64,000 bases of DNA from NCBI GenBank assembly GCA_038087875.1, contig CM075993.1, positions 3,660,001 to 3,724,000 on the forward strand, read 5' to 3'. Origin of the DNA: Malacoraja senta (Eukaryota). Positions 1 through 63,944 of this stretch are shown here, piece after piece; the stretch's first letter is position 1; the number at the start of each line of letters is the position of its first letter. The notes beneath the pieces are model-generated. The model had not been told where the DNA came from and ran no database searches. It was given only the letters and a program-made list of their open reading frames with translations. The translations under genes and the position numbers were made by a program.

Positions 1-360
1 GTCCTGAGTCTCCTCCATGGCCACAGCGAGCAACACCGGAAATTGTAGGAAATGCACCTCATATTCCGCTTGGGCAGTCTACATCCTGGGGGCTTGAACA
101 TTGAATTCTCCCAATTCTGCTAGCCCTTGCTGTCCCCTCCCCTTCATCAGCCCTCTGGTTGTCTCCTCCCATCCCCCAGCCCTCGGGCTCCTCCTCCGCC
201 TTTTTTCCTTTCTTCTCCCCACCCCCTATCAGTCTGAAGAAGGGTTTCGGCCCGAAACGTTGCCCATTTCCTTCACTCCATAGATGCTGCTGCACCCGCT
301 GAGTTTCTCCAGCATTTTTGTGTACCTTCGATTTTCCAGCATCTGCAGTTCCTTCTTTAA
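1..360 (+). mobile_element. Penelope-like element 3' end: GIY-YIG endonuclease C-terminus plus pseudo-LTR with hammerhead motif
   Basis: 1-123 translates VLSLLHGHSEQHRKL*EMHLIFRLGSLHPGGLNIEF, the typical PLE GIY-YIG tail with an internal stop. A pyrimidine-rich stretch follows, then CTGAAGAAGGGTTTCGGCCCGAAACGTT at 234-271. Confidence 0.8.
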
Positions 361-904
361 CAAAGTTCTTTTAAGGATGTGGTGACACAAGGAACAACAG
401 ATACTGGAATCTTGAGCAAAACACAAAGTGCTGGAGGAACTCAGCGGGTCAGGCAGCTTATGTGGAGGGAATGGACAGGTGATGTTTTGGATCAGGACCT
501 TCCACAGTCTGAAACATCGACCCTTCTTTGACCCGAAGCATCATCTGTCCATTTTCTCCACAGATACTGCATGACCTGCTGAGTTTCTCCAGCATTTTGT
601 GTTTTGCTGTAAGGGAGTGGTGCTTTACCTCAACCAGAGAGCAGTGCTGAACTACTATCTACCTCATTGGTCACCCTCGGACTATCCTTGATCGGACTTT
701 GCTGGCTTTACCTTGCACTAAACGTTATTCCCTTATCATGTATCTATACACTGTAAATGGCTCGATTGTAATCATGTATTGTCTTTCTGCTGACTGGATA
801 GCACGCAACAAACGTTTTTCACTGTACCTCGGTACACGTGACAATAAACTAAACTGAACTTTAATGTACAGGTTACTTGTCCAGTCTTTAATTAATGGTT
901 GAAC

Positions 905-2070
905 CATTATGAAGATAAGTGAATTCTAGGTAAGTGTACAGTTAAAATGGAGATGGGCTGATTAGCGGATAGGCTGAGTTGCGGATAAAGCGGAAGATTG
1001 TCAAAGGAGGACATAGATCAGAGGGAAGTATGAGTGGAGAAATGGCAGATGGAGTTTAATCCAGAAAAGTGTGAGGTGAGATCAAAACTAAGGGGAAGGT
1101 AAGGCAGGGTCCTTAGGGATCAGAGGATGCAAGTCCATGGCTCTCTGAAAGTGGCAACTCAAGTAGATAAAGTGGGCAAAGCAATAAAATGGTATACTTC
1201 GAAGGTAGACACAAAATGCTGGAGTAACTCAGCGGGACAGGCAGCATCTCTGGAGAGAAGGAATGGGTGATGTTTTGGGTCCAGACCTTTCTTCAGACTT
1301 CAGATGTGGTATACTTGCCTTTATCAATCAGGCATAAAATAAGTCAAGTTATAGCAGCATAAACCTTTGGTTAAGTCACACGGAGCAGTTCTTGATCACC
1401 ACATTACAGGACGGATGTGGATGTTTTGGCGAGGCTTACCAGAATGCTAAGATAGACACAAAGCTGGAGTAACTCAGCAGGTCAGAGACAGCATCTCTGG
1501 AGAATAGGAATAGGTGACGTTTCTGGTCGAGACCTTTCTTCAGACTACTCTAATCTGGTGCAGAACTCCCTCTCTTTAAAAATTGGCACTGATGATTTAG
1601 CCAGGATCGCTATCCTCAGTCCACAGAATAATCTTTCAGCTCCCTTACACAAGGTCTAAGAATGCTGGATTGGAGCGTATTAGCTGAAAGGAGATATTAG
1701 ATAAACTTGGGCTTATTTTCTTTGGATCTTTAGAGACTAAGGGATCTGCTAGACGTATATAAAATAATGAGAAGCTTAGATGGGGTAGAGAGTCAGAGTC
1801 TTTTTGCTCAAGGTAGAGATGTTAAATACTAGAGGGTGTAGCTTTGTGTTGAGAGAGAGAGAGAGAAAGTTTAAGGAGATTTATGAGGCAGTTTTACACA
1901 GAGAATTGTAGTTGTGTGGAACAACCTGCCAAGGGAGACGATGGAAACAGATATGACAGCAACATTTAAGAGGCGTGCAGGCATCGGAAGGAAATGGATT
2001 AAGAGCAGGTTGATTGGATTTGTTTAAATTAGCATCATGGTCGGCAGAGCTGCTGTGGGTATTGTGCTAG
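905..2070 (+). mobile_element. Degraded CR1 (HER1-like) LINE fragment interrupted by PLE pseudo-LTR insertions
   Basis: CR1 RT 3' motifs (aaatggcagatggagtttaatcc; tactagaggg...tttacacagaga). The insert at about 1200-1306 is flanked by a TGGTATACTT duplication (1190-1199, 1307-1316). Confidence 0.65.
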
Positions 2071-2231
2071 GTTGTAGGTAAATGCAAGGATAGAGAGAAG
2101 AGAATTACTAATGAAAGCTTTCATAAAACATTAACTCCATTTCTCTCTCCACTGTCTGACCTACTGAGTATTCCCAGCATTTTTCGGTTTCATTAAATTT
2201 GATAAGAGATTTCTTTGCAAAGACTTTAGAC

Positions 2232-2469
2232 TTCTGTCCCACTTTCCCGAGTTGTTCACGAATTCTGCCGAGTTTTCAAACTCGCAGAATGTTCGTAACG
2301 AGTCCAGAGGAGGCCGTGGATAGATCGTAGCGGCTCGTTATGCCAGTCGTAAGGTACTCGGGCTATTTTTTTACTCGTGTACATTTTTCATCAGGCTGGA
2401 AAGGAACGTCCCGACTTCCTGATGCCCCGGGTACCTACGGCTGGCACAACTCGGGAAAGTGGGACAGAA
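2232..2469. mobile_element. Non-autonomous PIF/Harbinger-type MITE
   Basis: Perfect 24-bp TIR TTCTGTCCCACTTTCCCGAGTTGT / ACAACTCGGGAAAGTGGGACAGAA, with the same CTGTCCCAC terminus as other MITEs in the window. Confidence 0.75.
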
Positions 2470-2989
2470 CCAAAGCGTTTATTTTCTACTCCACAGTGTT
2501 CTGTTATTCAATTATCTTTGATACCTTGTCCCCAGATTCAGCCTGACCCCGACCCCAAGCTATTCCAGAGCTGTAGAGTCTGTGAATCTAGATCAAAGGA
2601 CTTTATTCATTTGCATCCTTTCAGCAGATTTGTAATTATCAGTCAAAGGGCGGATTTTTTTTCGAAGGGGAACGGGAGAAAAGATGTGTAGGAAAAAAAT
2701 GTTGTGCCGTTTTCCCGACACACCATCCCAACTTCGTGGTGAATCCGATCTTGAATCATCGATTATCGTCTGACCCGCTGAGTTACTCCAGCTTTTTGTG
2801 TCAATCTGCTGCCTGACCCACTGAGTTCTTCCAGACAACTTGTGTTTTTGCTCAAGATTTCAGTGTCTCTAGTATATCCAACAAAAACGCATCAAGCCTA
2901 AAACTCCTCTCATCTCATCCATCTTTACAGCATTTCTCCAGGGCATTTGCTTCTTAAAAATAAACATAATTAAACATAAACATAATTGC

Positions 2990-3245
2990 AGCCCCTAGAC
3001 TGTGGAACAGCATCCCCTTTCCCATCAGAACTTCCCCCTCCATCGACTCTTTTAAGTCAAGACTAAAGACTTATCTATACTCCCAAGCCTTTCCTGACGT
3101 CCTCTGAGTGAGGGCTACATGTATATATGTATGTAGTTTGTTTTGTTTGTGCTATTCTTATAACAAATGTAAAGCCCTTTGGCCAACGAGAGTGTTTTTT
3201 AAATGTTCTATATAAATATATGTGACTTGACTTGACTTGACTAAA
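2990..3245 (+). mobile_element. L2-type LINE 3' end with (GACTT)n tail
   Basis: Reads LWNSIP...FKSRLKTYL, followed by a 3' UTR and tandem tgact repeats. Confidence 0.65.
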
Positions 3246-3730: not shown

Positions 3731-3810
3731 GTTGTTCACGAAGGGTGAACGTGGGATACAATCTGTAGCTTCTATGAGTTCTCACAGGGGGGCAAGAGTT
3801 AATCCTCAAA

Positions 3811-4147
3811 TAGACACAAAAAAGCTGGAGTAACTCAGCGAGACAGGCAGCATCTCTGGGGAGAAGGAATGGGTGACGTTTCGGGTCGAGACCCTTCTTC
3901 AGACTGGTTAGGTATAAGGGAAAAACCTCGTGTTGAGGGTTTTGTTCAGGAGATGCGGACGCGACTGGGCAGGCCAATGTGGATTGTCCTTAGATCCTTA
4001 TCTCTTAGATAATTTCTTATCTGAGTGTCTCCCCTCTTGCCCTGACTCTCAGTCTGAAGAAGGGTCTCGACCCGAAACGTCACCCATTCCTCTCTCCAGA
4101 GATGCTGCCTGTCCCCGCTGAGTTTACTCCAGCATTTTGTGTCTACC
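3811..4147. mobile_element. Inverted pair of PLE pseudo-LTRs with hammerhead motifs on both strands
   Basis: tagacacaaaaaagctggagtaactcagc...cccttcttcagact (minus-strand motif 3875-3902) and its reverse complement agtctgaagaagggtctcgacccgaaacgtc...ttttgtgtctacc (plus-strand motif 4054-4081). Confidence 0.8.
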
Positions 4148-5519
4148 TTCTAAGATCCATGAGATAGACACCAAAAGCCAGAGTAAATGAAAAGTTGGAG
4201 AGACAGCATCTCTGAAGAATAGGAATAGGTGACGTTTCGGGTCGAGACCTTTCTTGAGACCGAACTGGGGAGGCAGTTAAGCCACACTGATGGGTCTGGA
4301 AGGAAGAAGAAATTCTGAAGGCAGGCACGGGTTCTTGATTGGGGACCATCAGCCATGATCATAATGAATGGCGGTGCTGGCTCGAAGGGCCGAATGGCCT
4401 CCTCCTGCACCTATTTTCTATGTTTCTCTGAACTCCTGGTCCAGCTGTATTCTTCGGACTTGCCTTTTCTGTTGTTCGATATATTTATTAGAGATTAGAG
4501 ATTAGAGATTCCTTTATTTGTCATTCAGACCTTTCGGTCTGAACGAAATTTCGTTGCCTGCAGTCATACATATAATAATAAATGACAAAACACACAATAA
4601 ACACAAATTAACATCCACCACAGTGAGTTCACCAGGCACCTCCTCACTGTGATGGAGGCAAAAGTCTTAAAGTCTCTGTCTCTTCCGCTTTCTTCTCCCT
4701 CTGCGCTGAGGCGATCCGGGCTTCTGATGCTGTGGCCCCGCCGGGCGACGGTAAGCCAGTCCAGCGGCCGAATTTATTCCAGATAGGTGGACCTTTCCTC
4801 CCAGCTCAGGATTCCTGATCCACCTGCCCCCCCCCCCCCAATCCCCTCCTCATAGATGTTAACCCTCTATGATCAACCCATTGCTGGAGCAATGCTGGAG
4901 TAACTCAGCGGGACAGGCAGCATCTCTGGGAGAGAAGGAATGGGTGACGTTTCAGGTCAAGACCCTGTCCCGCTGAGTTACTCCAGCATGTTGTGTCTCT
5001 CTTTGGGGTAAACCAGCATCTGCAGTTCCTTCCTACACATCTATCCATTGCTAGCAGTTGAGTTTAGTTTAGTTTATTGTCACGTGTACCAAGGTACAGT
5101 GAAAACATTTTTTTTGCCTGCTATCCAGACAGCGGAATGAGAATAGCTGATTAAAATCGAGCCATTTACAGTGTACAATCTAGCCATTTACATTCCCATA
5201 ATCAGGGAATAACGTTCAGTGCCAGTAAAATCTGATCAAAGATGGTCGGAGGGTCACCAATGAGGCAGATAGCAGTTCAGCACTGCTCTCTGGTTGTGGT
5301 AGGATGATTCAGTTGCCTGATTACAGCTGGGAAGAAACAAAGATTAGCATGACATTGACTTCCTCAATTGTCCCATTGCCCTTGTCACTGTGACTGACCC
5401 CCCCCCCTGAACTTCTTACCAACCCATCCCAAGATGGTTATCAGATCTCTGACTAAGGGTGATGCTGTTGTTTGACAAACCATCTTGCAGGGTTGGAATG
5501 AGAGCTCTCTAATACCTTG

Positions 5520-5725: not shown

Positions 5726-5874
5726 AATCACGAATCCACTTCTACCTTCTTCCGAAGATCCACACTTAGGATTGTCCTGTAGACTCCCTGCACAGAATTC
5801 CTATATTCCTCCTATATCGAGCACAGAAGAGGATTACCTGCCTGGGTTAGAGGGTAGCAGCTATAAGGAGAGGT

Positions 5875-5991
5875 ACACAAAAATGCTGGAGAAACTCAGC
5901 GGGTGCAGCAGCATCTATGGAGCTCCATAGAGTTTCTCCAGCATTTTTGTGTACCTTCGATTTTCCAGCATCTGCAGTTCCTTCTTTAACA
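5875..5991. mobile_element. Fold-back PLE pseudo-LTR insertion with a 17-bp target-site duplication
   Basis: CAGCTATAAGGAGAGGT at 5858-5874 and 5992-6008 flanks a self-complementary insert inside a CR1 fragment. Confidence 0.8.
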
Positions 5992-8346
5992 CAGCTATAA
6001 GGAGAGGTTGGACATAATTGTTAGTTTTCTCTGGAGCACAGAGAATGAAGGGATACCAGTAGGAAGGAACTGCAGGTGCTGGTTTAAACAGAAGATAGAC
6101 ACACACAAAATGGAGTAACTCAGCGGGTCAGCTGGAAAAGTCATCCATTCCTGCTCTCTAGAGATGTTGCCTGTCCGCTAAGTTACACCAGCATTTTGTG
6201 TCTATCTTCCTCCACAAATGCTGCCTGACCCACTGAAGTTTTTTTTTTGTTCCAGATCCCAGCATCTACTGTCTATTGTGTCAACATTGCGAAATTAATT
6301 TTGGTCTGTATCTTTATACATGTATTTCCAAATATTACATAGCAAACTCTCGCTGATCATAACTTTCTTAAATTACTTTCACACACGTGCCGTGGTCAAC
6401 AGCCATCCAGTGTAAATCAAGAAAGATAGAGAGTGGTAAAGTAACTCAGTGGGTCAGACAGAATCTCCAGAGAACATTGATAGGTGACATTTTGGGACGG
6501 GACACTTCTTCAAAGGGGGGGGGGGGGAGGACAAAATGTGGCAAGTGATGGGTAGATAAAGATAAGGGGTGATTCCATCTATCACTTGCCAGGTTTCCTT
6601 CACCTCTTTTCCAACATTCTCACCCCCCCCCCACAATCACTCTGAAGAAGTGTCCTGATTTGAAACATCGCCTATCCATGTTCTACAGCAATGCTGACTG
6701 ACCCGCTGAGTTACTCCAACACTTTAAGGTCATAAGGAATAGGAGTAAAATTAGGCCATTCGGCCCATCAAGTCTACTCTGTCATTCAAGTCTCCTATAC
6801 TCCGCCATGCAATCACGGCTGATCTATCTCCCCCCTCCTAACCCCATTCTCCTGCCTTCTCCACATAACCTCTGACACCTACACTAGTCTTTTTTTTGTA
6901 AAGCAACATCTGCAGTTCTTTGTATCCACGTGGTCCGGGCGTCCTTATTTAAGGATGTGTATATATCGGAAACAGCCTAGGGAAAAGTTACTAGACTAAT
7001 AAATGGGTGGGTTGACTTATGAGCTAACGTTGAAAGACATGTGTGCACTGTAGTTTGGAAATGTAGGAGTGAAGGATATATAGATACAGCTCCAAGATTG
7101 TCTTGCTGCATGCAAGTTTACTTGCTCAATAGTTGCAAATGAAAGTGAACTTTGTGCAATCATCAGCATACCTCCCAACAGGGTGAATGTGGAGAGGATG
7201 TTATCTCTTGTGGGGAACACAGAGTTACTGTTTAAAAGTAAAGATTCAGCAAGTTAAGAGGAGGATGTGAATATTTTATCTGAAAATTGTAAGATCATAA
7301 GTCCACAAGTGATAGGAGCAGAATTAGGCCATTCGGCCCATCAAGTCTACTCCGCCATTCAATCATGGCTGATCTATCTCTCCCTCCTAAATCCCATTCT
7401 CTTGCCTTCTCCCCATGACCTCTGACATTGTGAGTCTTCCTTCAAATGTTTTTCAAGAGGGTGTAGATAGATTCCTGATAAGTAAGCGGGTTAATGATGA
7501 CCAGAGGAAGGTACGATTGTGGAGGTGGATGTTACATTCAGATCAGCGACGATCTTGTTGAAAGGCAGAACAGGATTGACGAGCCAAGTGGGACACTGTT
7601 TCTCCCAATTTGTATGTTCATACAAACTTCTTTAACTCCACTTATGTTCTGCAGTCGAAAGTGTAGCTCTGGAATGTTGCATGGGTCGGTTATGACTGCC
7701 GACTTGTGGGATAAGGAGGGACTGGTTTCGTTTAGTTTAGAGATACAGCGCGGACACAGGCCCGTTGGCCCACTGAGTCCGCACCAACCAGCGATCCCCG
7801 CACAGTAACACTATCCTAACACACTAGGGACAATTTACATTTATACCAAGCCTACAAACCTGTACGTCTTTGGAGTGTGGTTGTAAATGAAAGTGAACAT
7901 TGTAACGATGTACGATCGTGCAGCGGTAGAGTTGCTGCCTTACAGCGCCAGAGACACGGGTTCGAACCTGACTTGTCTGCATAGAGTTTGTACGTTCTCT
8001 CCGAGACCTGGGTGGGTTTTCTCCGGGATCTCTGGTTTCCCCCCATACTCCAAAGACGTACTGGTTTATAGACTCCGGAGAACATGGATAGCTAACATTT
8101 CAGGTCAGGACCCTTCTTCAGACTGCAATCTCCAAGGATCAGTTTCAAATCCAGAGAACATAAGGTTGATTCAACTCCATATCCTAATTTTCCTATTGTC
8201 CATGTTTAAAATAGGATCGCAGATCGAGTCGATTCTGGACCCTGAGGTTGGCAATCTATTTCCTTTCTAACTTAGTGTCCTCCATGATATTTATTCCTAG
8301 ATTCCAATATATTATTGCTTATCATTCAAGAAATCTTCAACAAGGA

Positions 8347-13959: not shown

Positions 13960-14310
13960 ACAGCATAATTTGCTTGGGCAGCTTACAACCCAGGGGTATG
14001 AATTTTCATTTCTCTAACTTCAAGTAACCCTTGCATCCCCTCTCTCTTCATCTCTCCCCCACCCAAGTCACACCAGCTTCTCTTTCTCACCTAGGAAACA
14101 GCTAACAATGGCTTGTTTCCTTTATCATTGTACTTTTTTGCATATCTCTCCTTCATTTGTTCTATATCTCTCTACATCATCGTCGATATCTCTCGTTTCC
14201 CTTTCCCGTGACTTTCAGCCTGTAGAAGGGTCTCGACCTGAAACATCGGCCATTCCTTCTCTCCAGAGATGCTGCCTGGCCCGCTGTGCTTCTTCGGTTT
14301 AAACCAGCAT
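13960..14310 (+). mobile_element. Penelope-like element 3' fragment
   Basis: cgcttgggcagcttacaaccc-like GIY-YIG tail, 3' UTR and a degenerate hammerhead/pseudo-LTR. Confidence 0.65.
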
Positions 14311-14561
14311 CTGGCAGCTCCTCCCTGCACAAAGGGATAATGGCGGCAAGAGCACTGGAACACCAACACCAAAGTTGCAAGCCAATTTAATTTGGAATTG
14401 CATTGCCATTCCTTCGTCATCGCTATTTAGATCCTTGACTCCTTATCAACAGACGAGATCACCCTTAACACAATGACTGAGAAGGAACTGCAGATGCTGG
14501 AAAATCGAAGGTAGACAAAAGTGCTGGAGAAACTCAGCGGGTGCGGCAGCATCTGTGGAGC

Positions 14562-14788
14562 GAAGGAAATAGGCAACGTTTCGGGCCGAAACCCTGAAGG
14601 AAATAGGCAACGTTTCGGGACGAAACCCTGAAGGAAATAGGCAACGTTTCGGGCCGAAACCCTGAAGGAAATAGGCAATGTTTCGGGCCGAAACCCTGAA
14701 GGAAATAGGCAACGTTTCGGGCCGAAACCCTGAAGGAAATAGGCAACGTTTCGGGACGAAACCCTGAAGGAAATAGGTAACGTTTCGG
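14562..14788. repeat. 34-bp tandem array (6 full units plus 1 partial) derived from the PLE pseudo-LTR
   Basis: Unit GAAGGAAATAGGCAACGTTTCGGGCCGAAACCCT starts at 14562, 14596, 14630, 14664, 14698, 14732 and 14766. Confidence 0.95.
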
Positions 14789-16842: not shown

Positions 16843-16882
<40 letters not shown>

Positions 16883-28980: not shown

Positions 28981-29200
28981 AGCATCTCTGGAGAAAAGGA
29001 ATGGGCGGTGTTTCAGGTCGAGACCATTCTTTAGGCTGAGAGTTAGGGGAAAGGGAATCGGGGGATATAGACGGTGATATAGAGAGATATAGAACAAATG
29101 AATGAGAGATATGAAAAAACGTAACAATGATAAAGGAAACAGGCCATTGTTAGCTGTGGACGAGTTAGAGACAATGAGACTCAACAAGAGGACTTTGAAG

Positions 29201-29548
29201 GTTTCGGCCCGAAACGTTACCTATTTCCTTCGCTCCATAGATGCTGCTGCACCCGCTGAGTTTCTCCAGCACTTTTGTGTACCTTCGATTTTCCAGCATC
29301 TGCAGTTCCTTCTTTAACACTTTGTCTACTCCACTGCGAAATCTCGTCAAGGTATGCCTACTTTGAAGAAGTTCTCCTCCTCTCTCCGGAGACTGTTCGG
29401 GCTCCTCCTCCGCCTTTTTCCTTTTTTCCTTTCTTCTCCCCACCCCCTATCAGTCTGAAGAAGGGTTTCGGCCCGAAACGTTACCTATTTCCTTCGCTCC
29501 ATAGATGCTGCTGCACCCGCTGAGTTTCTCCAGCACTTTTGTGTACCT
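29201..29548 (+). mobile_element. Internally deleted Penelope-like unit with two tandem pseudo-LTRs (retrozyme-like)
   Basis: 15-bp TSD AAGAGGACTTTGAAG (29186-29200, 29549-29563). The repeat GTTTCGGCCCGAAACGTTACC occurs at 29201 and 29465 (period 264). Intact core CTGAAGA at 29455. Confidence 0.8.
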
Positions 29549-29672
29549 AAGAGGACTTTGAAGCTCATACAACGACTTGGGTGGGGGAGGGACGGAGAAA
29601 GGAGGATGCAAGGGTTACTTGAAGTTAGAGAAATCAATATCATACCATATCATATCAACAATCTGAATTACA

Positions 29673-29974: not shown

Positions 29975-32759
29975 GAATCTGCAGAAGTACTGACTGTGAG
30001 TCTTAAACTAACCCAATTTCTGAAGCGTAGCTCAGAAACACAACTAGCGAAATCTCAGAATTGACGTACATACCATTGACACTTTCATTGACTTGTCAAA
30101 AAAAAATATTTTGGAATGTAAATATGGTGCAGAGAAAGAAAACTTGCAAAATATATCAATTTCCTTTAAATGCCACTATCTGTAAGTTCCCTCTCAAGGC
30201 ACACACCACTGTGGTTTTAAAATATTTTGCTGTTCCAACAATTTTGCAACCACAGTTTTCAAAGAATTGTTGCAACTGAAATGATTGTGCAGTGCGATAC
30301 ATGCCAACACCAAGTCAATTTTCAGTGTAGCTCTAAAGTGGAGTTGGGAGGTGTGGAGGAGATTTTGTAATCTTTGTTCTCTTTAAACATCTGCTGCATT
30401 AAAATGTCAAATTAAACAACATGCCACAAGGAAGACAAAAACAACAATGCTCGAATGGTTGACACTAAAGCAAAGACTGTTTCCCCCCAAAAAATGAAAA
30501 CAGCAAGTTCTTTCATTTTTGCGAACAAAAAAGATTGGTATCGGTTTAGTATTGTCACATGTACTGAGATACAGTGAACATGAGTGTCATACACATGTAT
30601 AACAGATAGCACCAACTGAAAAATGCCAGAGTTATTATTATTTTTTAAAATTATTTTTATTAGAAGCAATTGTACAAGAATAAAATATTCGGCATGTAAA
30701 ATTATACAATTATTGTACAGATTCAATTTTGACCTTTTATCCTGAAAATGAGGGAGAAGAAGAGTGAAAAGTGAAAAGATAGGACCCCTAGGCTACCAAA
30801 GTAGTGTGGCCAAAGTGAATAAAGATATGAGAGGAAAAGGAAAAAAAATAAAACAATAAAAAAGTGGAGATATACCTGCCCCTTGTCCCCCCCACCCCGC
30901 CCACCTCACCCAACCCATAGTTGGATTTAAATCCAAATTTGTGTTGTGCCATACTATCCTTGTAAGAATTCGGTAAAGGGTGTCCATGTCTTGAAAAATT
31001 GATCTGTTTTTTCTGCCAAGACAAGCCAAATATTTTCCAAATGATTTGGTATTTAATAAACTGTGCACCACTGTGAATAGCTCTGAGGTGGAGGAGAGAG
31101 ACAGAGCTGGCTCATACCTGGACCTTTCAGGGTTTGATCAGATTTCTGGTGATGGTTTTACAGCATCCTAACGTTGCAGTTGCAGAGGAAGAGTCCAAGA
31201 TCAGCAACGATGTAGGTTGGAAAATCTGGACTGCACCCCAGCTTATTGGAGGACCATTCAGTAGTCTGATGGCAGTGGGGAAGAATCTGTTCTCGAATCT
31301 GCTATTGTGCGGTTTCAAGCTTTTGAATCTTCTGCCTGACAGTGATGGAAAAGTGGTTCTTCACTATGTTGGCTGCCGTCCCAAGACAGTGTGAAATGTA
31401 GATGCAGTCAAAATGCAATATATTTTCAATTCAACTTGGGATACTGCAAGGCTAATATTTATTATCTATCCAGAAATAGTCATAGTGTCATACAACGGTG
31501 GAAACAGGCCCTTCAGCCCAACTTGCCCGCGTCTACAGTCTCACCGGCCTGCATTTGGCCCATATCCCTCTAAACCTACCCAATGCATGTACCTTAAATG
31601 TTGCAATGGTAGCTGCCTCAAATATCTCCTCTGGCATCTTGTTCCACACACCCGCCACCTTTTGTGTAAACAAAATTACCCTTCAGGTTCCTTTTAAATC
31701 TTCCCCCCCCCCCCCCACCTTAAACCTATGTTAAATATATATATGTATATATATATCAATACATTTCAATATGTTCTCTATGCAAGAAGGAACTGCAGAT
31801 GCTGGTTTAAACCGGAGATAGACACACAAAGCTGGAGGAACTCAGCGAGACAGGCAGCGTCTCTGGAGAGAAGGAATGGGTGACGTTTCGGGTCGAGACC
31901 CTTCTGGTATATTCTTTGTTTAAGAAGGAACTGCAGATGCTGGAATATCGAAGGTAGACAAAAGTGCTGGAGAAACTCAGCAGGTGCAACAGCATCTATG
32001 GAGCGAAGGAAATAGGCAACGTTTCGGGCCGAAACCCTTCTTTATATATTCTCTGATTGTGATTCCCCAACTCTGGGCAAAAGACTGTGCAATTTACATG
32101 ATGTATTCCTCTCAAGATGTTGTGCTACCTCTATGACATCACCTGTCATTCTCCTGTGCTCCCTAGCCTGCTCAAGCTCTCCCTATAGTTCAGGCCTTAG
32201 AGTCCTGGCAACATCCTCGTAAATCTTATTTGCATCTGCACAATATCAAAACCACAAATGCTGATGCCAAGTGTAAGATTGCTCATTTCAACTCACTCTA
32301 TTGCAGATATTCCCTTAGTTCTACCCATCCCCCAACACCCACCATCTTCTGCACCACTGAAAAAGAATGTTTTCTCTCTAGACTGTAGAGAAACGGGCCC
32401 TTCGACCCACCGATTCCACACCGACTATTGATCACCCCGTGCATTAACTCTGTCCTACACACTAGGGACAATTTACAATTTACAGGCAGGAGGTACGGAA
32501 GTTTGAAAACACATATCCCCCAGGTTCAGGAACAGTTTCCTCCCAGTTTGAGATTATTAAAGGCACGTGTCGCCACCCTCCATAGCCCCCTTATTTATGA
32601 ATTAAATTGAAGCTAGTAGACATCCCCAAAGTTTTCCTTCACTCCTCCCCAGCAGAAGTGCAAACATTTTAATCCCTGTCACCAAAGCCTGCATTGTGAT
32701 GCAATCCATTTGCATCTCACCACTGGTGTGGCAGTAAGGCCTTTGAGAATTTGGACGAG

Positions 32760-33970: not shown

Positions 33971-35226
33971 ACCAGTCTGAAGAAGGGTTTCGGCCCGAAA
34001 CGTTGCCTATTTCCTTCGCTCCATAGATGCTGCTGCACCCTCTGAGTTTCTCCAGCACTTTTGTCTACCTTCGATTTTCCAGCATCTGCAGTTCCTTCTT
34101 AAACAGGCTGGTTATTCCTAATTTCACTGTATCATTTTATGGGATTTTACAAGAATGATCCCAGGAATGAGTAGGTTAACCTATGATGAATGTTTTGACG
34201 GCACTGGGCCTGCAATTGCTGCCGTTTAGAAGAATGAGGGGGGGACCTCATTGGAACATACAGAATAGTGAAAGGCTTGGATAGAGTAGATGTGGAGAGG
34301 ATGTTTCCACTGGCTGGTGAGCACGCGACAAAAGCATGTCACTGTACCTCGGTACACGTGACAATAAACTAAACTGAACTGAGCTGAACTGAAACTGAAC
34401 GGACCCAATCCGCTGAAATATTCTGACCCGAAACATCGCCTGTCCATTCCCGCCACAGATGCTGGTCACTTAAATTTCATTATTATTCATTATTTCATTA
34501 TTATTTAACAATTATTATAGTGCACTTGGCACTTTCAATGCCTTGCATCTTTTGTATCTTTTGAATGGTGGACCAATTTCCCTCTGGGATAAAGAAAGCG
34601 GTATGGTATGGTATCGCATGCTGAGTTCCCCCCAGAAACTTGTTTTCCTTTCAAGGTCCCTTTATCTCTCGTGTCTCAGCTTCTAGTACTTATTCTGTTT
34701 TTGCTTCAGATTTCCAGCATCTGCAATTCCCCCCTCCCTGATTTTCATTTATAGCTCATTACAAGGTGCTGCCTGGAGACACTGACCAAAGACACTTCCC
34801 TCTCCACAAATACTGTCCAATCCAATGGATACATCCAGCGTGTCTTTCTATCGCAGTCAAATCAAATAGGACAAATCAAATCTCACAGAGAGTGGTGAGT
34901 CTGTGGAATTCTCTGCCTCAGAGGGCGGTGGAGGCAGGTTCTCTGGATGCTTTCAAGAGAGAGCTAGATAGGGCTCTTAAAGATAGCGGAGTCAGGGGAT
35001 ATGGGGAGAAGGCAGGAACGGGGTACTGATTGGGGATGATCAGCCATGATCACATTGAATGGCGGTGCTGGCTCGAAGGGCCAAATGGCCTATTGTCTAT
35101 TGTCTATTGACATGTTTTCGCTCCCAACCCGTCTATTTTGCCTCAAGACGATGATAGTGCTGGAGGAACTCAGCGGGTCAGGCAGCATCTATGGTGATAA
35201 TGGGCAAACGACATTTCTAATCTGGT

Positions 35227-35305
35227 CTGAAGAAGGGTCCCGACCCGAAACGTCGTCTGTCCTCCACTCCTCAGAGTCTGAAGAAGGGGTTCGGCCCGAA
35301 ACGTT
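35227..35305 (+). ncRNA. Two tandem minimal hammerhead-ribozyme motifs (predicted)
   Basis: CTGAAGAAGGGTCCCGACCCGAAACGTC at 35227 and CTGAAGAAGGGGTTCGGCCCGAAACGTT at 35278. Confidence 0.55.
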
Positions 35306-36028
35306 GCCTATTTCCTTCGCTCCATAGATGCTGCTGCACCCGCTGAGTTTCTCCAGCATTTTTGTCTACCTACTCCTCTGATGTTGCCTGGACTCACTGA
35401 GTTCCTCTAGCTCTTTGCGTTTCATTCTTGTGAAACACTAGCAGTGTGTGAGACTGTCACTATGTTTTGTGCTTCTAAGATCATTAACATGTTATTTCGC
35501 ATTAAATATTAGTATTGCTGTTAAAGATTGCCACTCTAGAATGGTGATATGAATCTGAAACGCTTCGGGGAATATTTGGGTCGTGAGTTTGGCGAGGGGG
35601 TGGTTTCTGTTAAGGCGGCTAATTTTCCTTATTAGGGCCAACAGAGTATATTTTGGGCTATTGGTTGATGTTTTTTTGGGGGTGGTGAGCAAATCAAGCC
35701 CAGATTAGTAAACCGTGACAACTGTATATGTCACAGGCGCAAACATCCCATGTTTGAAAGGTAACCCCGTTACTATTTGTGACGCAAATTGCGTTAAAAA
35801 AAAAAACTCCCGGCACCAGGCTAAAGAAGTTATACCGTCTAAACGGTGCGGTGTGCGTGTTTGTACAGACTGGCTGGGCGAAGGAAAGATAACAGAAGGA
35901 CAGTTAGGCAGAGAAAGTTGACCAATGATAATTTTCTTGTAGTAAATGAGCCTGCAGACCAGTCTCCTTCTCTAACCACCATTGAACGTATCAAGAATTC
36001 CCCCAGTTGCAAGTCTAAGAACTCGAAG

Positions 36029-41459: not shown

Positions 41460-42090
41460 TTGCATATGATATACTGTGGATAGTATGTGAGGAGGCAGGC
41501 CTAGGACAGAAAGGTCAGTGTGAGAATGGGAAGGGGAATCCATCAGTCTGAAGAAGGGTTTCGGCCAGAAATGTTGCCTATTTCCTTCGCTCCACAGATG
41601 CTGCCTCACCTGCTGAGTTTCTCCAGCATTTTTGTCTACCAGGGGAATTAAAGTGTTTGGCAACTTGGAGATCAGGTAGACCTCCTCCATTGTCAGAGTT
41701 GAGGCTAAGCTCAAATTGGAGGAATATTTCACTTGTGCAGCTTACACCCCAGTGGTATGAATATTGATTTCTCTAACTTCAAGTAACCCCTGCAAGTAAC
41801 TCTCTCCAGCCCTCCCCCATCCAAGTCGCACCAGCTTCTCGTTCTCACCTCGTAAACAGCTAACAATGGTCTCTTTATCATAATTTTTGAATTTGTTCAT
41901 TCAGTTCTATATCTCTCTACTTCACCGTCTATATCTCTCGTTTTCCTCTTCCCTGACTCTAGTCTGAAGAAGGGTCTCGACCCGAAACGTCACCCATTCC
42001 TTCTCTCCAGAGATGCTGCCTGGCCTGCTGAGTTTCTCCACCATTTTGTGTCTATCTTCAGTTTAAACTAGCATCTGCAATTCCTTCCTA
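41460..42090. mobile_element. Penelope-like fragment with an inverted 5' part and a nested pseudo-LTR, in SORD intron 3
   Basis: GIY-YIG tail on both strands (41460-41540 minus, 41680-41780 plus); intact hammerhead motif at 41964. Confidence 0.7.
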
Positions 42091-42319
42091 AACATTTCGT
42101 CTGGAATACTGTATGCAGGTCCTATCTCCTTCAGGTGGGATTTACCTGCAACAAAGGGAGTGCAGCAATATTTTAGCAGATTGCTACCTGGGATTGTTGG
42201 GTGGGTTTGTTGTATGGCGAAAGATTTCGCGAAAGATTTGTCACAGGTTGTGGGAAATGAGTGGGGGTGAGCTCACAGAGAAGTTCAAAGTTCTTACAGA
42301 GTTGACAGGGATGATGGCA

Positions 42320-42948
<629 letters not shown>

Positions 42949-43090
42949 TTTATTGTCACATCTACCATGAAGGCACAGTGAAATTCTTTGTGTTTTGCTC
43001 ACACACTACACAAAAGAGTCGACAGAAGTCGACCAAGTTACAAAGTACCCTTAAATATTAAATACCCTTAAATGCTCAGAAAGCATGTCT

Positions 43091-43354
43091 GAAGAAGGGT
43101 TTCGGCCCGAAACGTTGCCTATTTCCTTCGCTCCATAGATGCTGCTGCACCCGCTGAGATTCTCCAGCATTTTTGTGTACCGTTAAATATTGTTGGTCCC
43201 TTCTTTGTCTCCCCCTCCATCCGAAGAAGGGTTTCGGCCCGAAACGTTGCCTATTTCCTTTGCTCCATAGATGCTGCTGCACCCGCTGAGTTTCTCCAGC
43301 ATTTTTGTGTACCCTTAAATATTGTTGGTCCCTTCTTTGTCTCCCCCTCCATCC
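43091..43354 (+). repeat. 132-bp tandem duplication of a pseudo-LTR plus adjacent unique flank
   Basis: Units start at 43091 and 43223; each ends ttaaatattgttggtcccttctttgtctccccctccatcc. Confidence 0.9.
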
Positions 43355-44369: not shown

Positions 44370-44730
44370 GCACATTGGCCGACTGGATCTCCCGGTTGCT
44401 AACCATTTTAACTCCCCTTCCCATTCCCATACTGACTTTTCTGTCCTGGGCCCACTCCATTGCCAGGTGAGGCTACAAGCAAATGGGAGGAAGAGCACCT
44501 CATATTTCACTTGGGTAGCTTACAACCCAGCAGTATGAACATAGACTTCTCCAATTTTAGGTAACTTCAACAACTGTGTATGTTGACCCTGATTTGTCCT
44601 GGTCTTTTCATGCTTCCAGTTCCCATATCCCTACAATCAGTCTGAAGAAGGCTCCCGTCCCGAAGCGTCACCTATCCATTTTCTCCAGAGATGCTGCCTT
44701 GACCCATTGATTTACTCCAGCATTTTGTGT
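44370..44730 (+). mobile_element. Penelope-like element 3' fragment
   Basis: LPVANHFNSPSHSHTDFSVLG..EEEHLIFHLGSLQPSSMNIDFSNF GIY-YIG tail and a pseudo-LTR. Confidence 0.8.
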
Positions 44731-45284
44731 CTTAACCTTACAGAGGAGATTTTACGAGTATGTTGCCAGACCTGGAAGGTTTGAGTTATAAGGAGAAGTC
44801 TGAGATCCTGGATCTTTCCTTTGCTGAAACATTGGAAACTAAGGGATGACCTTAAAGAGGTATAAAAAAAAATCATGAGGGAGGTGGATTGGGTAGCTTT
44901 CACCTGAGTAGCCGAATGTGAAACTTCTGTGAGCATAGGTTTAAGGTGAGGGGGCATTTAAAAAGGAGCAATAGGCGACATTTTCACACAGTTTAGAAGA
45001 TCTGAACCTACAGCACTGTGGTGACAGTCTGATAGCTGATGGTTTCACCGTAAAGAAATAACATAATTGTCCTATTTGGAAATTAACTTCATAATGGCTC
45101 TCTTTTGATTGACTAATAAGAATAGTTGACTAATTGACTATGACTAATAGTTGGGATGGGAAAAACCTTGCCCCAGATTAGGGAATACAAATATTACATT
45201 CTGTGCCACTAATACTAATAAACAGTGATTGTTTGCTGGAAGAAAACGTGCATGCATTTATCTCAAGTATTTCCTCCACTGCAG

Positions 45285-49940: not shown

Positions 49941-50964
49941 GTAAGGTTATTTGTAGGTTTTAAAACATTGTTCATAGAACTTGGGTCGCAGTTTACTGCC
50001 CAGTCCATAATTTCCCATTGAACTTTGACACAAAAAGCTGGAGTAACTCAGCTCAGTATTCAGTAAGACAGCATCCCTGGAGAAAAGGAATAGGTGACGT
50101 TTCAGGTCGAGACACTTCTTCAGACTGAGTGTCAGGGGAGAGGGAAACGAGAGGTGTACACAGTGAAGTAGAGGAATATAGAACAAAGAAAGAAAGATAT
50201 GCGAAAAAGTAACGATGATAAAGGAAACAGGCCATTGTTAGCTGTGTGCTAGGTGAGAATGAGTACAGACAATGAGACTCAACAAGACGACTTTGAAGCT
50301 GGTGGGGGGGGGGGACGGAGAGAGAGGGTTGCGAGGGTTAATTGAAGTTAGAGAAATTAATATTAATAATCAAAAAACCCAAACCACTGGGTTGTAAGCA
50401 GCCCAAGCTTGGCCAAAGCCAAGCCCATGGAACTGAATGGATTACTTGACTGCTTTAAGGACAGATAAGATACATAGACTTGGAATCGCATACAAGTTCC
50501 TTAAAGATTACATAGAACATTATACTGCATATTTGTGGAAATGATGTCAAATGAAACCAGCCGCCTCTGCCTGCACGTGATCCATTTATCTCCATTCCCT
50601 GCATATTTATGTGCATGTCTAAATGCTACTTAAATGGCAATATTGTGTCTTCTTCCAATACCATCCCCTGGCAGCACCTTACATTAGAGGAGCCCCTTTT
50701 AATTGGTCATTAAATGAGGTCTTTGAGTGCCTTTTTTTGAAATGAGCATAACCTCATCCAGTTCATTTTACCAGCATCTTGTATAATTTAAGAAAAGTTT
50801 AATTTTATTTTTATTGCTCGTGTCAGTATTTCCTTTGAAGCGTGAAAAGAGTTCATTGTGAGTGGGAACATTGTGATATTCTGCAAAAGTAATTGTGAAA
50901 AAGGCAAATTGGTCAGACATAATTTAATAATTTGAGGTCTCATCAGCTCATTAAATTGTTCCAG

Positions 50965-61170: not shown

Positions 61171-61204
61171 GAAAAGCGACCAATTCCAGAACCAGGTCCT
61201 AACG
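61171..61204 (+). CDS. SORD: SORD paralog copy B exon 2 (34 nt, EKRPIPEPGPN)
   Basis: ttattcacag|GAA...AACG|gtaagt; same size and phase as copy A exon 2. Confidence 0.9.
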
Positions 61205-63536
61205 GTAAGTCTTTCATGCCTTAATAATTCATGTACTTGGCACTGAAACTTAAAATAAGTATACATTAAATTTTGGGCTATAATATAGACGTCTAGTTTG
61301 TGACTAAATTCTAAATCGAACCAAATTACTGAATCTGACATAAAAAATAGAAAGCACTAGAGATACACGGCAGACTAAGCAATAGCTGTGGAGTGTTAAA
61401 ACTTGACAATTCTGGTTCTGTCCGTGCCCAAAAGCTTTTCATCTGTATCATCACCCAGTTCTAATCTCCCAATCAATAACCTCCATCCAGTTAGGTTGCA
61501 TGGTCAGCTGAGCATTTCCAGCATTTTCTGCTTTTAAGTAAAATTCCCTGTTAGATAATGTAATCCTGAGAATTTTTTTCATTTTTGAACAAAACATTTT
61601 ACTGTCTATTGAGAAATTTTAATCTAATATAAGGGGTGAAGCTTTTTTTTGAAAGGTTTATTCTGATGGAATTCCAATACAATGAAACTATTAAAACAAT
61701 CGATCAGGACTGCAGCCATGTATAGTTCAATTTGAAAATGCAGAACTGTGATGTTCTACCTTTTGTATCAGTGCATTTTATGAATAGTAGGAACAAAATT
61801 ACTTCTAATCCCATTTTCTTGAGAAAGAAACTCGGCAACTTCTGTATTTATCAAAATGTTTAAATTGTTCAAAAAATTTGTTTAAAATGAACTTACTATT
61901 TAACTAAAGGATTATGCTATACTAAAATGGCACCAATATAAATTTATATCACCCATGGATACTTTTGTGAATTAGTCCTTTGACTAAACCCTTACACTTA
62001 TGTGGTCTGATGTAGGGATTATTAAGATGATTCATTTCTAAGACTTAGATAAACGTAGGCAATTAAATTTGTAGCTCAAAATGTACAACTTGCCTTTGCA
62101 CAACATGGTAAAGAATATGTTAAGCTTCACTATGCTATGTTTACCTTATTTAACTTTTTTGTTTCTAATTATTTTCTTCGAAAGACCAATCTTTTCACAG
62201 CTTTTACTGCCTATCTCATGGGTTGGTTTCAACAGTTTCTACATGACTGCCTCTATCTGTGTCAACCAGAAAAAGATTTCAAGCCTTTTCAACAAAAGGA
62301 CAACAGTGTCCTTTATTTGTACAACGCCTTCAATTAGCGTGAATATTATCAAACAAAATCTGACTCAAAGCCACAGGAGAAGATATTGGGGTAGTTAACC
62401 AGAAACATAGTCATAGGTATGTTTTAAGGAGTGCATAAAAGAAGGAATGAAAGGCCAAGATGCAAAGAAGTTGATGAGGAAATCTTATGCAACCAGAAAT
62501 ATGGCCACTCATCAGATTTGGAAAGAACAGACTTCCTTGAGGTTTACATGCTTGAGCGTGATAAAGAGTGTTCAGGGATTTGAAACGACAGCATAGGTAA
62601 ATAGGACCCAGAGCACAACACCAATAGTTTTGGATACCATAGTTTGGAAGCAATAAGATCAAAGCTAACTAGAAGTAGATCGGATGAGGGATGTCTCAAG
62701 ATATTAAAGCTTTGGACTGGAGCTGCAGCAGTAGAATTGATGCAGATACATAGTTGAGAGATGGTTTGACCATTAGGGCTCTTGCTTATTCCATGGATAT
62801 GTGCTAATAATCTTCTCTAGCAGTTTTATATTTTGGCAAGTTTGTAACTGCTTTATTCAGATGCACGGGCAACGACTAGGGAACTTCTGTCAGCCTGATA
62901 ATTGGGTATAAGTGAAAACTCAAAAGATATAATGATGAGGTTAAGCTGGATGCCATCAGCTTACTTGTGGAAAATGATACTGTATTTTCTTTTGAGAGGT
63001 AGGGTTAGCAGACGTAACAGTGCTGGAAGAGAAAGTTGAGCAGGTTAAGAGAAACACAAATGGAATCAAGTGAGCGTCTTCCCACCTAATTAGACAACAG
63101 TTAGGAATGGTGTTGTCAGACATGTAAAAAGCTTCAGACTGGCCAAGAGGATGAGAAGGAATAGATAATCTATGTCGCAATCACAAAGAATGCCATTAGT
63201 GACATTGATAAGAGATGTTTCAGTTCTGGTGGCAGAGTTGCAAACCTGATTGGATCCAAATCAATGGTCCTTTTAAATGGTGAGTTGGTTTACTTATTCA
63301 GTATTTACAGCCACTGGGCTACCACATCAGCATTCTTTCAATTGTGTTTTACTGTATTGTGACAAAGCCTTTTGTTTTAACGTCGTGTGAGTGTTTTCTC
63401 CTCAAAATCTAACATTAAAGTTCTTTATTTTGACAAATCGTTTCTACGGAGTTGCCATGACGTCTCTAATTGAGGCCAATGTTGATATACAGGATTTCCA
63501 AGATTTTAATTGTTGATAATTATGCGGTTCTTTCAG

Positions 63537-63701
63537 ACGTCTTGCTGAAAATGCATTCAGTCGGGATCTGTGGCTCTGATGTCCATTTTTGGCAAAATGG
63601 AAGAATTGGAGATTTTATTTTGAGGAAACCAATGGTCCTGGGGCATGAAGCCTCAGGAACTGTGTTTAAAGTGGGATCTGGAGTCCAACATCTTAAACCA
63701 G
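63537..63701 (+). CDS. SORD: SORD paralog copy B exon 3 (165 nt); the gene continues beyond the window
   Basis: tttcag|[55 protein letters not shown]|gtcagt. Confidence 0.96.
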
Positions 63702-63759
63702 GTCAGTCACTAATCCAATAAGTATTATTATGACTTGGCAGATGCCAATGTGTGTGAAG

Positions 63760-63944
63760 ATAGACACAAAAAGCTGGAGTAACTCAGCAGGACAGGCAGC
63801 ATCTCTGGGGAGTAGGAATGGGTGATGTTTCAGGTCGAGACCCTTCTTCAATCTGAAGAAGGGCCTCAACACGAAATGTCGGCCATTCCTTCTCTCCAGA
63901 GATGCTGCCTGTCCTGCTGAGTTACTCCAGCTTTTTGTGTCTAT
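63760..63944. mobile_element. Palindromic head-to-head pseudo-LTR pair (hairpin element)
   Basis: Two arms of about 90 bp are reverse complements and meet at cccttcttca-atc-tgaagaaggg. Confidence 0.85.

What the first reader, a model, noticed from the sequence alone, without database searches (positions are those of the whole stretch)
234..63944. Dominant repeat carries a minimal hammerhead ribozyme: Penelope-derived mini-element family
Seen: dozens of copies of two subfamilies share CTGAAGA-A-[GGGT-CTCG-ACCC or GGGT-TTCG-GCCC]-GAAAC-GT(C/T). Intact copies are at 234, 4054, 29455, 33977, 35227, 35278, 41964 and 43089 (+) and 3875-3902 (-). Stem II pairing is kept in both subfamilies despite sequence change. 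The motif lies downstream of GIY-YIG tails (1-123, 44370-44560), and short copies carry their own 10-17-bp TSDs (1190/1307, 5858/5992, 29186/29549, 29662/29760). Known: Penelope-like elements encode minimal type I hammerheads with a palindromic stem III thought to work as dimers, and retrozymes are non-autonomous hammerhead retroelements. Inference: a very high-copy, ribozyme-defined mobile RNA family in this lineage. Stem I is only about 2 bp here, so activity is unproven.
Basis: partly seen in the sequence, partly recalled or inferred. Interest (0 to 1): 0.75.

Follow-up and report, generated by a model that had tools for sequence, protein, structure and literature searches.

The report
Skate Penelope repeat with minimal hammerhead
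About a tenth of this stretch of probable skate DNA is made of short end-pieces of Penelope-type jumping genes that carry the known minimal hammerhead ribozyme motif; most copies start right at the motif's front edge, likely where the element's own RNA begins, and cutting by this weak motif is untested.

Summary
Observation confirmed; interpretation partly. The repeat (54 fragments, about 9% of the window) is the terminal repeat (pLTR) of Neptune-type Penelope-like retroelements (PLEs). GIY-YIG tails lie 78-195 nt upstream on the same strand, closest proteins are from little skate, 3' ends fall at two sites about 35 nt apart (the PLE 'tail'), and TSDs and head-to-head inversions are present. 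Eight copies hold an intact minimal type I hammerhead with only a 2-bp stem I. PLE hammerheads and dispersed truncated copies are published, so the kind is known. It is not a retrozyme: there are no tandem intact units and no copy begins at the cut site. New here: (i) the published descriptor misses 8 of 9 motifs; (ii) local density is 125 intact motifs per Mb; (iii) 31 of 54 5' ends sit within 12 nt of the catalytic core, unlike related elements (9 of 71), beside an initiator-like TCAGT; (iv) the predicted fold is an alternative hairpin, not the hammerhead, with no compensatory covariation. Likely mechanism: the PLE enzyme starts reverse transcription inside the 5' pLTR of uncut RNA and copies to its start, giving short solo repeats.

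The parts
1..123 (+). C-terminal end of a PLE GIY-YIG endonuclease ORF (family B), one internal stop, ends at TAG
   Evidence: tblastn with P0005 77.5% over 40 aa, E 1.6e-13; P0005 is a little skate protein
124..233 (+). Pyrimidine-rich 3' UTR of family B, ending in TCAGT (229-233; initiator-like and also splice-acceptor-like)
234..261 (+). Intact minimal type I hammerhead motif (family B); predicted cut between 261 and 262; stem I 232-233 with 262-263
   Evidence: no variant at 5% or more over 234-261 in runs X1 and X15
262..329 (+). Conserved 3' module of the pLTR, ending at the short 3' end (+93 to +97 from C3)
330..362 (+). Optional PLE 'tail' (33-38 nt), second 3' end
   Evidence: 11 of 54 fragments end at +123 to +132; loose ends at 362 in X1 and X15
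1190..1316 (-). Short family A copy with decayed core, 10-bp TSD (1190-1199, 1307-1316)
3810..3925 (-). Family A copy with intact motif at 3875-3902
4033..4150 (+). Family A copy with intact motif at 4054-4081
5858..6008 (.). Head-to-head inverted family B insertion without the hammerhead: short 3' end on the left, tail end on the right, 17-bp TSD
13965..14330 (+). GIY-YIG tail, family A 3' UTR and decayed motif (C3 at 14220)
14480..14788 (-). Family B copy preceded by 6.7 tandem units of 34 bp (+7 to +40 of the pLTR)
28981..29640 (-). Older family A element (ORF stop region, UTR, decayed motif at 29034) split by the nested B insertion
29186..29563 (+). Family B partial tandem: pLTR from +9 with tail, about 75 nt of leader with an ATG, deletion, 3' UTR, intact motif 29455-29482, short 3' end; 15-bp TSD
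   Evidence: the target sequence is single in sister element A50123
29662..29770 (+). Short family B copy starting at +6, 11-bp TSD
31786..32042 (-). Family B copy (+3 to tail, 8-bp TSD) inserted directly 5' of a family A copy
33973..34105 (+). Family B copy from -4 to tail with intact motif 33977-34004, no TSD found
35225..35371 (+). Intact motif at 35227-35254 (only hit of the published 3-bp stem I descriptor) followed by B copy 35275-35371 (G-G in stem II, 7-bp TSD)
41532..41648 (+). Family B copy from -6 with 8-bp TSD, inserted into a minus-strand GIY-YIG fragment (41496-41679)
41682..42095 (+). GIY-YIG tail, family A 3' UTR, intact motif 41964-41991, tail
43087..43354 (+). Family B copy from -2 with intact motif 43089-43116, duplicated with its flank (132-bp period; second core mutated)
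44386..44732 (+). Frameshifted GIY-YIG tail, short UTR and decayed motif (C3 at 44642) of a third family
50019..50400 (-). Family A element: ORF end by DNA likeness, UTR, motif with weakened stem II (C3 at 50123)
63755..63944 (.). Head-to-head pair of family A pLTRs joined at their hammerhead 5' edges

Best explanation
The repeat is the terminal repeat (pLTR) of Neptune-type Penelope-like retroelements of a probable skate, with the known minimal hammerhead motif at its front, and its many 100-135 bp copies were likely made by the element's own reverse transcriptase-endonuclease from RNA that the ribozyme had not cut. Shown: same-strand GIY-YIG tails upstream, two 3' end sites about 35 nt apart, TSDs of 7-17 bp on a minority of copies, head-to-head inversions, and 5' ends piled at -12 to +12 of C3. 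Established for another PLE: reverse transcription starts internally at two sites that define the tail, uses uncut RNA, and the hammerhead cuts only with the protein (PMC11167929). Inferred: the transcript would begin at the initiator-like TCAGT just before the core. Priming in the 5' pLTR would then give a short solo repeat, and priming in the 3' pLTR the longer copies with GIY-YIG tails. A start there would also leave only three bases 5' of the core, fitting the 2-bp stem I. The hammerhead is predicted to be folded off in an alternative hairpin and would cut, if at all, only as a protein-assisted dimer in read-through RNA. Odds: PLE pLTR with a homologous hammerhead motif 0.95; copies made from uncut RNA 0.85; transcription start as the cause of the 5' edge 0.45; measurable cleavage under some condition 0.5.
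For: Protein: GIY-YIG tails match skate and shark PLE proteins; these carry the CX2-5CxxC linker of Neptune/Nematis (sequences; definition). Geometry: 30 of 54 3' ends at +88 to +98 and 11 at +123 to +132; the same two peaks in 71 related copies from metagenome contigs. Motif homology: the same core found by pattern alone is followed by C or T in 80 of 83 contexts, has stem I pairing above all 1000 shuffles at pairs 1-4 (75, 76, 71, 53 of 83), and lies 72-180 nt after a same-strand GIY-YIG end in 15 of 61 upstream windows against 1 of 75 downstream controls. 5' edge: 31 of 54 ends in 25 nt; of copies keeping C3, 15 of 25 start within 12 nt against 9 of 71 in the metagenome families (Fisher p 1e-5; family B alone 5 of 7, p 0.0016). 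In run X1 summed contig depth rises from 0.44-0.73 million over the ORF tail and UTR to 2.3-2.7 million at 239-280, with no family A letters at 5% there. The partial tandem 29186-29563 also starts in the cluster (+9). TCAGT precedes the core in families A, B and C but in 0 of 83 metagenome contexts. Drosophila virilis Penelope has an internal initiator/DPE promoter (PMC2377424).
Against: No RNA start was observed: the two raw-read runs laid 0 reads and the possible RNA run is contigs only. The 5' ends spread over about 18 nt, wider than a sharp start, and 16 of 31 lie at +1 to +12. Loose-end peaks at 228-229 in X1 may come from sister families with other UTRs. TCAGT is short and also reads as a splice acceptor; the initiator consensus is recalled. 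No full-length autonomous element was found, and the leader ATG at about 29354 is unverified. Eight 5' ends were set by hand. No compensatory change supports the hammerhead fold inside this family, and the core is not measurably more conserved than the 3' module between the A and B consensuses (0 of 11 core positions differ; about 12 of 67 in the module).
Confidence: 0.7

Rival explanations
1. Same PLE origin, but the 5' edge is set by the enzyme, not by transcription. The antisense strand from +9 to -2 mimics the sequence at the two 3' ends (CCTTC, and CCTTCTT plus five bases), so second-strand synthesis or strand joining would start there, or the 7-bp terminal complementarity would close a panhandle.
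For: The B RNA from -3 to the tail folds with its 5' GAAGAAGG paired to the tail end. 5' ends fall in two groups (-6 to -1 and +3 to +9) that mirror the two 3' offsets. CCTTCTT occurs downstream in 0 of 83 metagenome contexts and CCTTC in 6, and those families show little clustering. At 29200 target and element share GAAG.
Against: Post hoc, resting on 5-7 matching bases; most junctions with a TSD show 0-2 nt of microhomology; no such second-strand start was in the sections of PMC11167929 that I read.
Confidence: 0.22
2. The hammerhead is vestigial in this lineage: the sequence is kept as a promoter or protein-binding element and the alternative hairpin is the functional fold. Compatible with either origin of the 5' edge.
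For: Stem II probability is 0.00-0.09 in 9 of 9 window motifs against more than 0.5 in 72 of 82 metagenome contexts; the active dimer scores -6 to -7 kcal/mol against -27 to -32 for the best dimer fold. RNAalifold picks the hairpin that spans the cut site, 94% of cells paired. Contiguous stem I is 2 bp here, 3-6 bp in 60 of 82 other contexts.
Against: All catalytic positions, stem II, the ACGU palindrome and a permitted H17 are kept in both consensuses and in runs X1 and X15. The monomer energy gap (5-9 kcal/mol) overlaps that of related motifs (quartiles 3.6-7.2). Drosophila virilis has a 2-bp helix I and showed low cleavage once helix III was extended (PMC4209133). The alternative hairpin was derived from the same sequences it was scored on.
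Confidence: 0.25
3. One reading: an independent non-autonomous, retrozyme-like family whose RNA is cut out (and perhaps circularised) by the hammerhead and reinserted by a PLE enzyme.
For: Very high copy number; short TSD-flanked copies; animal retrozymes derive from PLE pLTRs and are reported for one chondrichthyan (bioRxiv 10.64898/2026.07.22.740005). Short copies that keep TCAGT could be transcribed again.
Against: Ribozyme-cut units should start at +28 or be head-to-tail arrays of whole units; 0 of 54 start at +28, and no array of two intact same-family motifs is in the window. The motif lacks the longer helix I of canonical retrozyme hammerheads (PMC7229834). No subfamily-specific feature separates short from ORF-linked B copies in the window.
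Confidence: 0.08
4. The pyrimidine tract plus CAG before the core is a splice acceptor; short copies come from spliced RNAs or stop at the splice junction.
For: Pyrimidine content 0.67-0.96 over -30 to -7 in UTR-bearing copies; in D. virilis the intron end maps to the 5' end of helix I (PMC4209133); long X15 pieces begin at 231-232.
Against: TSD-flanked copies have only 0-7 extra bases before the repeat, no exon; upstream letters differ among copies; many ends lie downstream of the junction.
Confidence: 0.07
5. The hammerhead likeness is chance in a high-copy repeat.
For: The descriptor is short; one ancestral chance match would be multiplied by copying; Rfam finds nothing.
Against: Same core, same position between GIY-YIG end and tail, in unrelated elements whose downstream DNA has no likeness to this family (median local score 15, equal to shuffles; A vs B 65); published Neptune pLTR motif of Acropora digitifera has the same build.
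Confidence: 0.01

Closest known systems
Minimal hammerheads in pLTRs of metazoan PLEs (Cervera and De la Pena 2014, PMC4209133)
   Same: CUGANGA plus extra base, G-C base of stem II, GAAA-C-G-U-H with palindromic one-pair stem III, location in the pLTR downstream of the endonuclease, mostly dispersed single motifs 'probably related to truncated PLEs'.
   Different: No shark or skate among the rows of their Fig. S3 alignment as read from the supplement text. Stem I of 2 bp fails their descriptor (minimum 3): 1 of 9 found. Density 125 per Mb in this window against about 9,000 (Xenopus tropicalis) and 4,000 (coelacanth) per genome. Stem II not favoured in the predicted fold.
Neptune clade PLEs (description in bioRxiv 10.1101/2021.04.23.441226, passages)
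   Same: C-terminal GIY-YIG; closest relatives carry the CX2-5CxxC linker; partial tandems, inverted 5'-truncated copies, optional 30-40 bp tail, hammerhead in pLTR.
   Different: No RT or full ORF in the window, so no tree placement (Neptune vs Nematis by linker only); solo pLTR copies with a shared 5' edge dominate.
Poseidon PAc of Anolis (Frangieh et al. 2024, PMC11167929)
   Same: Two 3' start sites bounding the tail about 100-130 nt downstream of the hammerhead; both strands primed (5858-6008 has the two 3' ends on opposite strands inside one TSD); no trace of the cut site.
   Different: Other clade; there the ORF begins in stem II, here a candidate ATG lies after the tail; no clustered 5' edge was described in the sections read.
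Animal non-LTR retrozymes (PMC7229834; bioRxiv 10.64898/2026.07.22.740005)
   Same: Non-coding, type I hammerhead, related to pLTRs, TSDs longer than 4 bp.
   Different: Retrozymes are head-to-tail arrays of 150-450 bp units expressed as circles; these are dispersed monomers with a minimal motif, PLE tails and inversions.

Membership tests
EN+ Penelope-like element (pLTR) | C-terminal GIY-YIG endonuclease upstream of the 3' repeat, same strand | tested here: met
   4 tails by tblastn, 2 more by DNA likeness; relatives P0005, P0008 and L005 ORF carry GIY-YIG hits below Pfam cut-off
EN+ Penelope-like element (pLTR) | Telomerase-like RT in the same ORF | tested here: inconclusive
   No PLE RT fragment found in the window; relatives P0014-P0016 and L005 have RT plus the same endonuclease end
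EN+ Penelope-like element (pLTR) | Optional 30-40 bp tail at the 3' end | tested here: met
   30 and 11 of 54 ends in two peaks
EN+ Penelope-like element (pLTR) | Partial tandems and inverted 5'-truncated copies, variable TSD | tested here: met
   29186-29563; 5858-6008; 63755-63944
Neptune clade | CX2-5CxxC linker before GIY-YIG; RT phylogeny | tested here: inconclusive
   Linker present in closest relatives; shared with Nematis; no tree built
Minimal type I hammerhead of PLEs | CUGANGA, GAAA, NUH core with stem II and palindromic 15.2-16.2 pair | tested here: met
   8 intact of 26 anchored copies, 0 in 100 shuffles
Minimal type I hammerhead of PLEs | Stem I of 3 bp or more (published descriptor) | tested here: not met
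   1 of 9; 2-bp exceptions such as D. virilis are accepted in the same paper
Minimal type I hammerhead of PLEs | Compensatory covariation of stems within the lineage | tested here: not met
   0 pairs changed on both sides in 12 copies; only one-sided U-A/U-G changes; little divergence available
Minimal type I hammerhead of PLEs | Self-cleavage as dimer or with protein | not testable with these tools
   Needs an assay; folding disfavours the active form
Non-LTR retrozyme | Tandem of two or more units each with a complete hammerhead | tested here: not met
   43089/43221: second core mutated; 35227/35278: different families, 51 nt apart; 34-bp array lacks the 5' core; one window only
Non-LTR retrozyme | Canonical type I hammerhead with long helix I | tested here: not met
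   Stem I 2 bp
Non-LTR retrozyme | Expressed as monomer and circular RNA | not testable with these tools
   No raw RNA reads were offered
Named Repbase or Dfam family | Match to a curated consensus | not testable with these tools
   Neither library is available here

The most novel reading that the evidence does not exclude
In skates a Penelope terminal repeat has become a self-contained 100-135 bp unit: an internal initiator at the hammerhead's front edge plus the internal reverse-transcription start at its tail let each copy be transcribed and re-inserted like a SINE, seeding hundreds of thousands of latent hammerheads, invisible to the published descriptor, that are held off by an alternative hairpin and switch on only with partner RNA or PLE protein.
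Probability: 0.15. Interest if true: 0.65.

Novelty: new member of a known kind. Interest (0 to 1): 0.38.

Why it matters
The kind is known, so this is mainly an annotation gain: a dominant skate repeat is a Penelope terminal repeat, and hammerhead censuses that demand a 3-bp stem I would miss almost all of it. If this window were typical, a genome of about 2 Gb (size recalled) would hold a few hundred thousand intact motifs, above the 126,247 reported for axolotl (PMC7229834); this is an extrapolation from 64 kb. The sharper point is mechanistic. The role of PLE hammerheads is still called unclear. A family with so many insertions lets both junctions be mapped in bulk, and here the insertions show no footprint of cleavage and an unexplained 5' edge at the core, which makes transcription start, second-strand start and ribozyme role directly testable.

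Tried and rejected
No whole genome is held, so no genome-wide count. Rfam at gathering threshold: 0 hits; not repeated at E-value threshold. The exact skate motif found nothing in viral or metagenome contigs; a looser core found 123 stretches, 122 loci in the files, organisms not identified. Pfam on the three short tails: no family. Word-indexed protein search with a 44-aa stretch: none. Top phmmer hit P0001 is a coiled-coil YadA-like protein, set aside as chance. Raw-read runs X22 and X23 laid 0 reads: no test. Runs X18-X20 had small shares and were not used. Empty-site search in the window supported 29200, 41542, 35275 and 56267 loosely and nothing for 17 of 22 units. A longer stem I beyond an internal loop was looked for: pairing patterns at positions 3-8 differ among copies, not supported. 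Cleavage-defined ends rejected. Selection on single copies rejected. Paper searches without a description of this family: ribozyme+Penelope+cartilaginous 0 papers; Penelope+Leucoraja+transposable 1 unrelated; Penelope+skate+shark+retrotransposon 3 listings, not opened; Penelope+Chondrichthyes+Neptune only the 2026 preprint; uninformative. The preprint's supplementary tables are closed and may list a chondrichthyan family related to this one. Earlier findings of the scan: none returned.

Full report
Positions with + or - count from C3, the first C of CTGAAGA (window 234 = 0); the predicted cut lies between +27 and +28.

Observation. A fuzzy scan found 39 matches to the 28-nt motif, 7 perfect, and none in 5 shuffles. 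BLAST with four window seeds gave 61 merged fragments covering 5,966 bases, 9.3% of the window. I carried 55 of them forward, leaving out five further units of one 34-bp array and one ORF-end piece, and dropped one duplicate row to count 54. The four named TSDs are real, and further ones of 7-8 bp flank 31914, 35275, 41542 and the pair 4891-5040; 39 of 52 single fragments show none, and mismatched flank pairs gave 8 bp or more in 3 of 307. Rfam found nothing.

What the repeat belongs to. A 36-aa stretch at 44368-44475 retrieved 9 proteins; of 7 looked up, 3 are from little skate, 1 from a stingray, 1 from whale shark, 2 unnamed. The host is therefore probably a skate (inference). tblastn with these and longer RT-bearing relatives found endonuclease ends at 1-120, 13965-14021, 41682-41783 and 44386-44561, each followed on the same strand by a UTR and the motif, plus pieces at 17846-17962, 41496-41679 and 58878-59265. 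Two more links (50123, 29034) rest on DNA likeness. The relatives carry a CX2-5CxxC linker, a mark of Neptune and Nematis (passages of bioRxiv 2021.04.23.441226). UTRs of families A, B and C do not align, whereas -4 to about +90 does: this module is the pLTR. The insertion at 29186-29563 reads pLTR, tail, about 75 nt of leader, deletion, 3' UTR, pLTR, inside a 15-bp TSD whose target is single in a sister element.

Ends. Of 54 fragments, 30 end at +88 to +98 and 11 at +123 to +132, the optional 30-40 bp PLE tail, which in Anolis PAc is the distance between two internal reverse-transcription starts (PMC11167929, main text parts 1-2 read). At 5858-6008 the two 3' ends face outward within one 17-bp TSD, as expected if both nicked strands prime. 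The 5' ends are not scattered: 13 lie at +13 to +70, 31 at -12 to +12, 10 further upstream (eight values set by hand from TSD or ORF evidence). None is at +28; two are at +25 and +26. In run X1, summed contig depth rises from 0.44-0.73 million over 15-224 to 2.3-2.7 million over 239-280, and no family A letter reaches 5% there; the tool warns that this depth is not a copy number. At least 8 coded organisms hold 46-89% of the sampled words of the B element.

Comparison with other elements. A looser core pattern found 123 stretches in metagenome contigs, capped. In 83 distinct contexts the base after GU is C or T in 80, and stem I pairs 1-4 exceed all 1000 shuffles. A GIY-YIG end lies upstream in 15 of 61 windows against 1 of 75 downstream controls. 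Their 3' ends show the same two peaks, but only 9 of 71 start within 12 nt of C3, against 15 of 25 here (p 1e-5). Their downstream DNA is unrelated to this family. So the motif is the homologous PLE hammerhead, and the piled 5' edge is special to this lineage.

Is it an active ribozyme? Unshown, and the evidence is mixed. Both consensuses keep all 11 core positions; the four A/B differences in -4 to +29 fall in the loop, at H17 and as U-A/U-G swaps, and no variant reaches 5% over 234-261 in X1 or X15. Against: with about 12 of 67 positions differing in the 3' module, an unchanged core of 11 is not significant; no pair changes on both sides; single copies decay evenly. Stem II has probability 0.09 or less in 9 of 9 window motifs but over 0.5 in 72 of 82 other contexts, and the active dimer is about 20 kcal/mol above the best dimer fold. 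The consensus fold is a hairpin across the cut site. Published metazoan minimal motifs were inactive as monomers and weak as dimers (PMC4209133, parts 1-2 and the supplement text read), and PAc's cuts only with its protein and is dispensable for insertion.

Mechanism. I favour this: transcription starts inside the 5' pLTR at the initiator-like TCAGT at -5 to -1 (consensus recalled; motif present in A, B and C, absent from 83 other contexts), as Drosophila Penelope uses an internal promoter (PMC2377424, abstract and one section read). The enzyme primes internally at either tail boundary. In the 5' pLTR this yields a 100-135 bp solo repeat; in the 3' pLTR, ordinary truncated copies with ORF tails. 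The partial tandem at 29186 starts in the same cluster, and a start at -3 explains the 2-bp stem I. This step is inferred (0.45). The main rival is that the antisense of +9 to -2 mimics the 3' start motif and sets the junction; a splice acceptor is less likely.

Known and new. PLE hammerheads, their dispersal as truncated copies, solo pLTRs (passages of PMC3846280) and pLTR-derived retrozymes (bioRxiv 2026.07.22.740005, parts 1-3 read; PMC7229834, passages and one section) are in print. The family fails the retrozyme tests that could be run. I found no description of it in the searches; Repbase, Dfam and the preprint's supplements could not be seen. The published descriptor needs a 3-bp stem I and finds 1 of 9 motifs here. 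Density is 125 intact motifs per Mb in this one window.

Verdict. A new member of a known kind, with one unexplained and testable feature, the 5' edge at the catalytic core. Interest 0.38; the SINE-like, latent-ribozyme reading has probability 0.15 and would deserve 0.65.

Noticed in passing
window 14562-14788 (-): 6.7 tandem units of 34 bp spanning +7 to +40 of the B pLTR; the same joint (274 back to 241) and neighbours occur in run X1 and X15 contigs. The two ends of the unit lie together in the predicted alternative hairpin; template jumping or DNA slippage are both possible.
   Followed up: partly
window 229-237: TCAG-T-CTGA is a DNA palindrome overlapping the 5' end cluster; in family B GTTTCGG-C-CCGAAAC is a second one.
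   Followed up: no
window 54790-54883: Inversion breakpoint at +25/+26, next to the predicted cut site; single case.
   Followed up: partly
window 58878-59310 (+) and 17846-17962 (-): Older PLE endonuclease fragments, the first with a decayed GIY-YIG motif, without a recognisable hammerhead downstream.
   Followed up: partly
window 41496-41790: Head-to-head inversion inside the GIY-YIG coding region of an older element, later hit by a B insertion; new copies repeatedly land in or beside older PLE copies (29186, 31914, 35275, 41542).
   Followed up: partly
window 29340-29396: Leader after the tail contains AAG-GTATGC (splice-donor-like) overlapping an ATG that opens 13 codons before the deletion; found once in the window.
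   Followed up: partly
window 47620-47979 (+): 119-aa open frame that looks like the C-terminal part of a Harbinger/PIF-type transposase (recalled resemblance); no Pfam hit.
   Followed up: no
window 26852-28848 (+), 12618-13157 (-), 18701-19327 (+), 59882-60556 (-): Fragments of other LINEs; RVT_1 hit at 27519-28121; three near-identical CR1-like 3' ends (label recalled).
   Followed up: no
L005:1087(-), 1665-3449(+), 3582(+): 595-aa RT plus GIY-YIG frame flanked by two hammerheads in opposite orientation.
   Followed up: partly
proteins P0002, P0005, P0006, P0008: Public skate and ray gene models include PLE endonuclease pieces fused to unrelated sequence, probably annotation read-in of repeats.
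   Followed up: no
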